From Stylophora pistillata (lineage: Eukaryota), in the NCBI RefSeq assembly GCF_002571385.2, contig NW_019218344.1, forward strand, positions 111,471 through 175,470: a stretch of DNA of 64,000 nt, given 5' to 3'. The translations under genes and the position numbers were made by a program. Below are positions 468-3,400 of the stretch, piece by piece (position 1 is the stretch's first letter; each line of letters opens with the position of its first letter). The notes under the pieces are model-generated. The model was not told where the DNA came from. It searched no databases and saw only the letters and a program-made list of their open reading frames with translations.

Positions 468-3400
468 CTATGAACTACCTGTCAAAGCTTCCTGAGCAAA
501 ATACTTCACATCTACATCAGTGTCGCCATTCAGTTTATCAAGGACAGGTTTGATCTGCGATTTGATGGTGCTGTGAAAAAAGAAAACACACCAGAGATAT
601 TTCGCACTGTATTGAGAATGGTTTCACTCTGTCACTCTGTTTGTCACGAGCGAGGGACAAAGAAAAAATCTGAGTTCCCCTGGAGGAATCGAGTCGGATT
701 TCTCGGCGTGATTCCCTACCCAGGGGCTACAGAAAACAAGTTGGTTCAATTTGTCTATCAAGACGGGTGTCTCATTTGACCCGCCATCTGTTAGGTTCGG
801 TGGCTTTAAAACATAGGATACTTTCCATTGAAATGTTTAATCCGATGTTCACTCGGTGTGAGCATCACTAGCAATTTCTTTTGTTCAGTAAATTCTACAT
901 AAGTGTGCAAAATGTCTTAAGTCTAATTTCGTTGATCAATCACAATAACATATTTCCTCTCTATAATCTACCATACCGTCTGTCCTTTGGTAAACATGAA
1001 ATATGCTTTTTCGTTTCTATCGAGACTCATTACCCGTAGTTTAAAAATCTTAAATATTTTCAAATGAATATTCAATTGCAGTAAATGGTTTGAACCCGGG
1101 GGTAACATGTGAAGGTGTAGTCTGATCGTCCGGGTGAGTGTAGTCCTGAGAAGGACTGTTGTCGATGGATGGTAGTGACTGACGTTTCGACAACCTCTGC
1201 GGAAGTCATCATCAGAGTCAAGTGATGATGAGTTGACTCTGATGATGACTTCCGCACAGGTTGTTGAAACGTCAGTCACTACCATCCATCGACAACAGTC
1301 CTTCTCAGGACTAAACTCACCCGAACGATCAGACTACACCCTCGAATAGTCAATTGCTGTATGTAATCGTCTGATTCCAAAGCGCAGTGACTCATTTTGA
1401 ACGCCTACCCAAGGCAGTTCATTATAGCAATTAGCCAGCCAGAGATGTTAAGTTATTAACAAAACCGACCCACCTCTCGTCCAGAGCGGGTGCGATTTTT
1501 TGTAAAGTTTTAGCAACATTAAAGCGAACATTAGCGACAGAATCATCAGCTAAACCAATTACGACAGGAAGCATGAGCTTCACTACACTTTCTGGTCCCA
1601 TGACTTCTGCTAAAACCTGCAGAGAAAGACAGGAACAGATCAACAGCTATAATTATTGGACTGAGTAACTCAACCTGACTCACGATGTAGCTACTGACAT
1701 CAACTTGATATTAGAGGGGCAGTCACAATGGAGATGCCTTGAAAAGCATCGACGTAAAAAATTAACTTAAACTTGTCCAAAGAATTTCTCGAGAAGTTGA
1801 AATGTCAGAGAGTAACGTTAATTCACAGATAAAGTCATCTGCCCTTCGTGTTCTCGGTCTCCCACTGCGCAAAATCTAGTGTTGTTGCTTTAAACAGGGC
1901 GTAAGGGAAACGTATAAAGTTTTCAAACGCATCTGAAGAGCGATTGAAAACTCATTAAATCGTAAGCTTCATTTTGTTCTCTTCACCCTTGCCGTAGTAC
2001 TTCGCTGAAGTTATCTTTACTTGCAGAAAATTACTTCTAATCAACACACAATTTCCATCCATATTGGCAGTGAACTAAGTATTACTTGAAGAGCAACTTA
2101 CATTCACTGAGTATAGTGTGGTTAAGCGATGGAGATAGTTTGTATTTGTAGCCATGGCCAACACCTTGGGAATAACTTGGTTCTGGGAGAAAAAGAAATG
2201 TTTAAAGGTTGTATGATAATAGGGTTGCAAAGTTTGCACCCAACTAAATTCAACCGGTTACAGTGTACCTCGATTATTAAATCGCAGTCCTCACCTGAGC
2301 CCATTCAGCTCCAAACTTTTCAACTAACTTTTTGAGATTTTTGGCAGCAGCTTCTCGTATGGCATACACTGATTGCAAAAGGAAGACATCAAAAACAATG
2401 CTTTTTGACAATCTCTTATCACAAAACATTATCTATATCGTGCTAGTATCACCACCACAATTATTTCTCTACACCCAAGGGGATCACCAATCATCCAAAT
2501 CCCATCCCAAATCATACCCCATTCAAGGGCGTGACAAATGGTCCTGATAGAAATCAGGAGATCCCAGGTTAAAACCTTCCTGAGTTTCACTCTTCAGCTG
2601 CAATTTGTGAATTTCTATTTTCGACAATTTACAATCCATTTGCTACGTTTTTTTAAGGATTCAAGAGCTTCCTCCTGAGCAAAACAGTGTCAAACATATC
2701 AACACAACGGGAAAAAAAACTAATTCACATTATCAATTCATTCATTGTCCTGTATTATCAATGGCCACAGCCCACAGGTTTCTTCAGCAGGATGTCCGAT
2801 CTTGATTCAAGACCACGTTTCAACACTGCAATGTGATATTCACTTATCTTAACCATCCAGCAGCTCACCATGATCTACAAGCCATGTCATGCACAAGCTG
2901 TTCAGCTTCTCATCAAAGAATTCCACTCCCTGTAAGAGAAAGGAAAGTTTTACAAAACGCAATTATGATTCTCTCATTTCACTACATCAACTTTCTACTT
3001 CCACTGAACTTTACTGATTTTCAATTACACGGTAAATTCCTATTTCAAGGCTAAATTAGATTTGATATGAAATTATGCTAAATTTAGCAAACTAAGCCTC
3101 CATGGTATCAGATAACACTTTGAGGAAGTCACTATTCAGTGCCTCTCATGAAATCAGATAACAAGTTTCTTTTCTTGAATGCTTTTGACAAAGGATTTGA
3201 CCACACTCCACTGTTTGACAAACAAACTTGAAATGTTTACAGCAGCATCATCCTTTCTCTTTCCCAAGCATTCCTGACACTGACATGTAAATCATCTTAA
3301 CCAGCCCTCCACACTGGATCTTACATTTTGGTCCACTGGTTAACCCTCCCAGAAGTGATTAACATGCAACTTCTCCCAAAATATCCATACACTATCCCAC

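What the first reader, a model, noticed from the sequence alone, without database searches (positions are those of the whole stretch)
1084..1343. Sense-strand hammerhead ribozyme in a PP2A-A intron, locked in a hairpin with its own antisense copy
Seen: 108-bp inverted arms, each with CUGAUGA...GAAACGUC and pairing stems. The minus-strand copy (1176-1221) has an intact core and is sense to the PPP2R1A pre-mRNA. Known: Penelope-like elements carry minimal type I hammerheads with a palindromic ACGU loop, thought to cleave as dimers. Inference: the inverted partner would sequester the ribozyme in a long stem. That may explain why such insertions are tolerated in housekeeping-gene introns, and it could act as a co-transcriptional folding switch.
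Basis: partly seen in the sequence, partly recalled or inferred. Interest (0 to 1): 0.7.

Follow-up and report, generated by a model that had tools for sequence, protein, structure and literature searches.

The report
Head-to-head Penelope retrotransposon stub in coral
This intronic hairpin is two short mirror-image copies of the end of a very common coral jumping gene (a Penelope-type retrotransposon), likely pasted in together in one event; the mirror copy is predicted to keep the self-cutting RNA motif shut, but this looks like a by-product of how the element inserts and not a control switch.

Summary
In detail: inverted arms (1111-1226, 1228-1343), a minimal type I hammerhead on the minus strand (1220-1176), sense to a coral PP2A-A gene, in a 903-nt intron that is spliced in 5 of 5 RNA-like runs laid. 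The interpretation mostly fails. The unit (1078-1343) is a 5'-truncated insertion of a Penelope/Poseidon-type element with at least 1,508 hammerhead copies in this genome. It has the published layout: inverted truncated copy, 30-nt tail on one arm, 12-bp target-site duplication. In a sample, 33 of 67 resolved insertions are head-to-head pairs; 27 of 33 have one tail and 24 of 33 a duplication. A head-to-head pair is 'sense and locked' in any gene on either strand. Pairing is predicted to block the ribozyme (64 kcal/mol), from its first 12 bases, which leaves no window for a switch. The partner is not needed for tolerance: intact, unpaired, sense copies sit in introns of WDR4 and of an ion-channel gene. 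The scan found this layout before on other DNA. What remains useful is a record of how these elements insert, with a weak hint of rare ribozyme cutting in vivo.

The parts
1066..1077 (+). left copy of the target-site duplication (12 bp; 14 with a GC shared with the element end)
   Evidence: one mismatch to 1344-1355; 1 of 352 mismatched-flank controls reached the same score threshold
1078..1107 (-). 30-nt Penelope 'tail', on the left arm only (ends at the distal 3' end of the family)
   Evidence: family copies end at about position 1 or about 31 from the 3' end
1108..1226 (-). left arm: 5'-truncated pseudo-LTR copy, sense to the PP2A-A pre-mRNA
1176..1220 (-). minimal type I hammerhead, consensus core intact; predicted cut 1181/1180; ACGU palindrome in place of stem III
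   Evidence: consensus features from PMC4209133
1222..1232 (.). head-to-head junction, 11-nt loop of the hairpin; both arms start near the family's most common 5' end
1228..1343 (+). right arm: inverted 5'-truncated copy without tail (ends at position 34 from the family 3' end); antisense in the pre-mRNA and transcribed first
1234..1278 (+). second hammerhead, C11.1 changed to U at 1265; not on the transcribed strand
1344..1355 (+). right copy of the target-site duplication
571..1473 (-). host intron (903 nt, GT-AG) of the PP2A scaffold subunit A gene; insertion 130 nt from the donor, about 508 nt from the acceptor

Best explanation
This is a 266-bp, doubly 5'-truncated insertion of an abundant Penelope/Poseidon-type retrotransposon, likely laid down in one event as two head-to-head copies of the element's hammerhead-bearing end, and likely a neutral passenger in the PP2A-A intron. 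Shown: family membership, one tail, flanking duplication, splicing across it. Inferred mechanism: the element's endonuclease makes a staggered cut about 12 bp apart; reverse transcription is primed from both DNA ends, one at the distal and one at the proximal start site 30 nt apart, usually on the same RNA or on RNAs of one source; both cDNAs stop near the RNA's 5' end and are joined there. In any transcript through such a pair the antisense arm comes first and is predicted to zip up the ribozyme as it emerges, so the ribozyme is off; it would be nearly inactive anyway without a second copy or the element's protein.
For: 1,508 exact hits of a 17-nt core motif in the genome; long copies run into an RT + GIY-YIG ORF. 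The first 100 hits form 82 events: 33 pairs, 34 solo, 15 unresolved at assembly gaps or edges. 27 of 33 pairs have one tail (27 of 32 classifiable, p = 5e-5 against independent ends). Duplication score >= 8 in 24 of 33 pairs, 5 of 34 solos, 1 of 352 controls (p = 2e-6). A subfamily marker agrees between arms in 24 of 26 pairs (11 discordant expected, p = 1e-4); a 24-mer with a 4-nt duplication occurs only in these two arms in the whole assembly. Same layout published: PMC3846280, PMC8557442, dual opposite-strand minimal hammerheads in PMC4209133; two RT start sites and extension of both strands in vitro in PMC11167929. Intron spliced in 5 of 5 RNA-like runs. Unpaired sense intronic copies exist.
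Against: Two-ended priming is not separated from fold-back copying: shared markers fit both; only 2 of 26 discordant pairs (and a few further marker mismatches in long arms) lean towards separate RNAs, and short-read assembly chimeras could make these. No empty allele was seen among the joints listed for 8 runs (6 of 21 joints not shown), so the insertion is widespread in the species; that fits drift but does not exclude selection. Neutrality is inferred, not measured. No full-length parent copy was recovered; the clade call rests on domain features, no tree. Pair and junction calls come from BLAST ends and a 60-nt rule; two pair events are local duplicates and a few 'solos' have short or interrupted inverted pieces.
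Confidence: 0.87

Rival explanations
1. Same passenger, other origin: one cDNA folds back at its 3' end and is copied into the second arm (self-priming), which is then trimmed near the tail and joined.
For: Private 4-nt duplication shared by both arms and found nowhere else; 24 of 26 pairs share the marker; 11 of 30 junctions overlap by microhomology; self-priming was proposed in PMC3846280.
Against: Solo copies also end at the proximal site (22 of 34), so it is an independent end; 16 of 30 junctions have filler; some duplication-flanked pairs differ at subfamily markers; the related enzyme extends both strands in vitro.
Confidence: 0.3
2. Selection filter: sense ribozymes harm host transcripts, so intronic copies survive mainly when paired.
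For: Pairing is predicted to block folding. 5' ends at the cut site in 7 loci against 0-3 at four neighbouring positions hint that the family's ribozyme cuts at times (p = 0.012, or 0.16 without three palindromic junctions). Tandem retrozymes are depleted from Xenopus introns (bioRxiv 10.64898/2026.07.22.740005).
Against: Intact unpaired sense copies in WDR4 and Cys-loop channel introns (2 of 20 solo loci). About half of all resolved insertions are pairs with no regard to place. Monomers showed no cleavage; the anole ribozyme needed protein; 69 of 78 arms read through the cut site.
Confidence: 0.08
3. Co-transcriptional folding switch that regulates PP2A-A by conditional cleavage.
For: Only the geometry; helicases or dsRNA editing could in principle open the stem (not tested).
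Against: 64 kcal/mol gap, zipping from the first 12 bases; no second sense copy in the window to form a dimer; young repeat with scattered substitutions that break pairs and no compensatory change; spliced product present in all RNA-like runs laid.
Confidence: 0.02
4. A MITE-like unit that moves as a whole hairpin.
For: Terminal inverted repeats and a duplication; a few loci share the same junction.
Against: Arm lengths range from 47 to over 1,000 nt and most junctions differ; arms are collinear with an RT-coding element; ends are unequal (tail on one arm).
Confidence: 0.03

Closest known systems
Insertion units of endonuclease-positive Penelope-like elements (Arkhipova et al. 2013, PMC3846280; Craig et al. 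2021, PMC8557442)
   Same: Head-to-head inverted 5'-truncated copy, about 30-nt tail on one arm, flanking duplication (8-10 bp there, 12 bp here), parent with RT and C-terminal GIY-YIG.
   Different: Here both arms are cut down to the hammerhead region and carry no coding body; no full-length parent recovered in this assembly.
Minimal type I hammerheads of metazoan PLEs (Cervera and de la Pena 2014, PMC4209133)
   Same: 5-bp helix I, extra base between 9 and 10.1, G10.1-C11.1 pair, palindromic 15.2-16.2 with no loop 3; that paper also reports dual motifs 100-700 bp apart on opposite strands.
   Different: Helix II is 3 + 2 bp with two U-U mismatches by the fold model, not 7-8 bp; activity of this family not measured.
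Poseidon element of Anolis carolinensis, PAc (Frangieh et al. 2024, PMC11167929)
   Same: Two RT start sites that define the tail; AUG at the start of stem II with the cut 29 nt later here (26 there); most copies hold the uncut ribozyme.
   Different: That work is in vitro on one target and, in the parts read, does not treat head-to-head products; the link of this short frame to the RT ORF is inferred here.
Non-LTR retrozymes (bioRxiv 10.64898/2026.07.22.740005)
   Same: Short non-coding, type I hammerhead, PLE origin.
   Different: Those are head-to-tail tandem units with consecutive ribozymes; this is an inverted pair collinear with the autonomous element.

Membership tests
EN+ Penelope-like element insertion | Sequence is the end of an element coding RT plus C-terminal GIY-YIG | tested here: met
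   Long copies continue into an ORF with RVT_1 (E = 2e-4) and GIY-YIG (E = 9e-4), both below Pfam cut-offs on a partial protein
EN+ Penelope-like element insertion | Adjacent inverted 5'-truncated copy, head to head | tested here: met
   33 of 67 resolved family events
EN+ Penelope-like element insertion | 30-40 nt tail at one end only | tested here: met
   left arm only; 27 of 33 pairs
EN+ Penelope-like element insertion | Target-site duplication around the whole unit | tested here: met
   12 bp with one mismatch; 24 of 33 pairs, 1 of 352 controls; empty site not seen
Penelope/Poseidon clade | CCHH motif in the endonuclease and no zinc-finger linker between RT and endonuclease | tested here: met
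   CxxC between the GIY and YIG parts, histidines downstream, no Cys motif in the linker, read by eye; criteria from PMC8557442
Penelope/Poseidon clade | Placement in an RT tree | not tested
   no reference PLE proteins at hand; N-terminal half of the ORF not recovered whole
Minimal type I hammerhead | Core boxes, extra base 9/10.1, G10.1-C11.1, palindromic 15.2-16.2 | tested here: met
   minus copy meets all; plus copy has U at 11.1
Minimal type I hammerhead | Match to an Rfam hammerhead model | tested here: not met
   no hit at gathering score or E <= 10; the motif lacks stem III
Minimal type I hammerhead | Self-cleavage as a dimer or with protein | not testable with these tools
   only an indirect weak hint from 5' ends at the cut site
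Non-LTR retrozyme | Head-to-tail tandem units each with a hammerhead | tested here: not met
   two arms in inverted orientation, no tandem copy
MITE | Fixed unit length and shared internal junction among copies | tested here: not met
   arm lengths and junctions vary
Regulatory intronic ribozyme or folding switch | Two folds of similar energy or a kinetic window | tested here: not met
   63.7 kcal/mol gap; paired from the first 12 nt in prefix folding
Regulatory intronic ribozyme or folding switch | Conservation in related species | not testable with these tools
   no related coral genome offered

The most novel reading that the evidence does not exclude
The family's many head-to-head scars are a genomic record of an unresolved step of Penelope transposition: one RNA is primed from both ends of a 12-bp staggered cut in a fixed division of labour (one distal, one proximal start site), and the arms' 5' ends mark both the start of the RNA and, rarely, its ribozyme cut in living cells.
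Probability: 0.35. Interest if true: 0.45.

Novelty: new member of a known kind. Interest (0 to 1): 0.17.

Why it matters
For the host gene, probably not at all. For annotation: 'sense hammerhead locked by its antisense copy in an intron' is the default look of about half of this family's insertions and should not be read as regulation. For transposon biology: the one-tail rule, the 12-bp duplication and the shared markers give countable constraints on how Penelope-like elements make inverted insertions, which PMC8557442 calls undefined. Long intronic double-stranded RNA from such pairs could also feed small-RNA silencing or editing (untested).

Tried and rejected
Rfam gave only hairpin-shaped microRNA look-alikes below their cut-offs; rejected. 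MITE and retrozyme readings rejected (see rivals). Empty-site allele sought in 8 runs' contigs: none among listed joints; contigs of X10 and X11 stop at 1077 and 1070, which shows nothing either way. Contigs cannot show RNA ends, so cleavage at 1181 and editing of the stem were not testable; reads on the arms come from the whole family. A full-length parent was sought in seven 10-kb stretches; the longest copy is 1.7 kb. One Pfam call failed on a frame slip (repeated without that stretch). The 'core only' row had a wrong offset and was dropped; redone (5.3 kcal/mol). Orientation bias: exon guessing at 20 solo loci confirmed exons on both sides for only two; four possible antisense cases (L159, L161, L162, L172) were not confirmed on both sides, so no count is made. 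Lunse et al. on dimer cleavage is not held; known to me only through a review passage. PMC9977147 added only that short intronic PLE insertions are common in Chlamydomonas. Five paper searches showed no study of orientation bias of intronic PLE hammerheads or a count of the one-tail rule; the library lacks most subscription journals and no supplements were read.

Full report
Observation. The arms lie at 1111-1226 and 1228-1343, 116 nt and 94% complementary. The minus-strand RNA folds into a stem of about 111 bp with an 11-nt loop, z = -30 against 200 shuffles. The minus copy holds a minimal type I hammerhead at 1220-1176 with the predicted cut between 1181 and 1180; the plus copy has U in place of C11.1. 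The host is the PP2A scaffold A gene on the minus strand. The intron is 571-1473 and is spliced out in contigs of X8 and X9, X11, X13, X14, 5 of 5 runs that behave as RNA; run labels point to a coral. Rfam has no matching hammerhead model. The motif matches the minimal consensus of PMC4209133 by inspection.

What it is. The unit is larger than the arms: 1078-1343, with a 30-nt extension on the left arm only and a 12-bp duplication with one mismatch at 1066-1077 and 1344-1355. A 17-nt core motif has 1,508 exact hits in the 398-Mb assembly and a 20-nt motif nearer the 3' end 1,668; 52 places have two exact core motifs head to head, 40-70 nt apart. Long copies run upstream into an ORF with RT and C-terminal GIY-YIG domains, CCHH present and no linker zinc finger, the Penelope/Poseidon pattern of PMC8557442; no tree was built and no full-length copy recovered.

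How usual the pair is. I fetched all of the first 100 hits (contigs C1-C15). They form 82 events: 33 head-to-head pairs, 34 solos and 15 hidden by gaps or edges. Three pairs have N between the arms, two are local duplicates, and a few solos carry short or interrupted inverted pieces. Of 33 pairs, 27 have one tailed and one tail-less arm, 4 two tails, 1 none, 1 unclassed; 27 of 32 gives p = 5e-5 against independent ends. A duplication scoring 8 or more flanks 24 of 33 pairs, 5 of 34 solos and 1 of 352 mismatched controls. In a second sample anchored nearer the 3' end (95 arms in C1-C10, 78 resolved) 45 arms have an adjacent inverted partner. So the pair is one insertion product and about half of all insertions. 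This layout is published: inverted pseudo-LTR, optional 31-bp tail on one arm, 8-10 bp duplication, head-to-head most frequent (PMC3846280, passages); inverted truncated copy and tail (PMC8557442, passages); dual minimal hammerheads on opposite strands (PMC4209133, parts 1-2 of 4).

How it was made (inferred). In vitro the anole Poseidon protein cuts and extends both strands and starts at two RNA sites that bound the tail (PMC11167929, parts 1-2 of 4). Priming from both ends of a staggered cut, one at each site, explains the one-tail rule and the duplication. The arms mostly share a template: one marker agrees in 24 of 26 pairs, this one included (11 discordant expected), and a 24-mer with a 4-nt duplication occurs only in these two arms. 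Fold-back copying fits this too; against it, 22 of 34 solos also end at the proximal site, and some duplication-flanked pairs differ at subfamily markers, which assembly chimeras could also cause. Junctions: 11 overlapping, 3 blunt, 16 with filler, of 30.

The ribozyme in the host transcript. Forming stems I and II costs 5.3 kcal/mol in the bare core, 7.6 in the arm and 63.7 in the whole unit or intron. The antisense arm is transcribed first and next to the ribozyme's 5' end; in prefix folding 97% of the first 12 bases are paired. It also needs no selection: a head-to-head pair reads antisense then sense on either strand. The window holds no second sense copy of this family for a dimer. A tested minimal hammerhead did not cleave as a monomer, the anole one needed protein and its cleavage was dispensable in vitro, and 69 of 78 arms here hold the uncut site.

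Is the partner needed? I took 20 of the 34 solo events with 10 kb each, predicted 57 exon candidates and checked 25 of them plus 8 further frames against Pfam or solved structures. Two loci have confirmed exons on both sides on the copy's own strand and an intact core: a Cys-loop channel (ligand-binding exon E = 8e-8 before, membrane exon E = 4e-28 after) and WDR4 (E = 5e-8 before; E = 0.035, weak but collinear and top hit, after). Neither has an inverted partner within the 10 kb. So unpaired sense copies are tolerated, at least in this individual. The other 18 were not resolved, and no orientation count is claimed.

Does the family's ribozyme ever cut? Earlier scan notes suggested looking at 5' ends. 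Patterns for arms starting exactly at the cut site gave 8 hits in 7 loci; four neighbouring positions gave 1, 3, 4 and 7 hits, of which 0, 2, 3 and 2 were independent truncations by eye. That is p = 0.012, or 0.16 after dropping three junctions at a near-palindrome that overlaps the site. A weak hint only.

Population. Contigs cross the left junction in X6, X8, X9, X13, X14 and the right one in X2, X6, X8, X9, X10, X11; no listed joint skips the insertion. It appears widespread; an empty allele is not excluded.

Verdict. A real but ordinary Penelope-type stub. The scan's notes hold the same layout from other genomes (unchecked notes, not counted as support; my reading was fixed before them). 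Papers seen: PMC8557442, PMC3846280, PMC9977147, PMC6765202 as passages; PMC4209133 and PMC11167929 parts 1-2 of 4; bioRxiv 10.64898/2026.07.22.740005 part 1 of 5 and passages; no supplements, which may hold coral examples. Novelty: new member of a known kind. Interest 0.17.

Noticed in passing
window 56978-57158: 87-nt arms, 99% complementary, head to head, from a second repeat family with its own minimal hammerhead-like core (one arm complete, the other cut inside the core); it lies among exons that look like V-ATPase subunit A on the plus strand (name recalled from the translation, not searched).
   Followed up: partly
window 22228-22722 and about 29690-29770: More pieces of that second family: a complex inverted unit with an assembly gap, and a solo stub starting just inside the core.
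   Followed up: no
window 39587-40867 and 21265-21449: 619-nt near-perfect inverted arms around a 43-nt spacer, non-coding, sharing their inner part with a 73-nt-arm hairpin at 21265-21449; a further palindromic repeat family of unknown kind.
   Followed up: partly
L173:4700-5141 (G000:C11) and L169:4953-5089 (G000:C6): Unpaired, core-intact, sense hammerhead copies inside introns of WDR4 and of a Cys-loop ion-channel gene; natural controls for any cleavage test.
   Followed up: yes
family-wide, 78 resolved arms of contigs C1-C10: 5' ends cluster at 135-146 nt (11), 159-170 (9) and 95-106 (7) from the 3' end, against 2 at 107-124; the first cluster lies on an initiator-like motif (motif recalled; also named in PMC3846280) and may mark the RNA start.
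   Followed up: partly
window 1151-1172 and 1282-1303: A 4-nt duplication private to these two arms shifts the short reading frame that starts inside the hammerhead.
   Followed up: partly
window 479: RNA contigs leave the genome at 479 into a further exon, so the PP2A-A gene has one more intron downstream.
   Followed up: no
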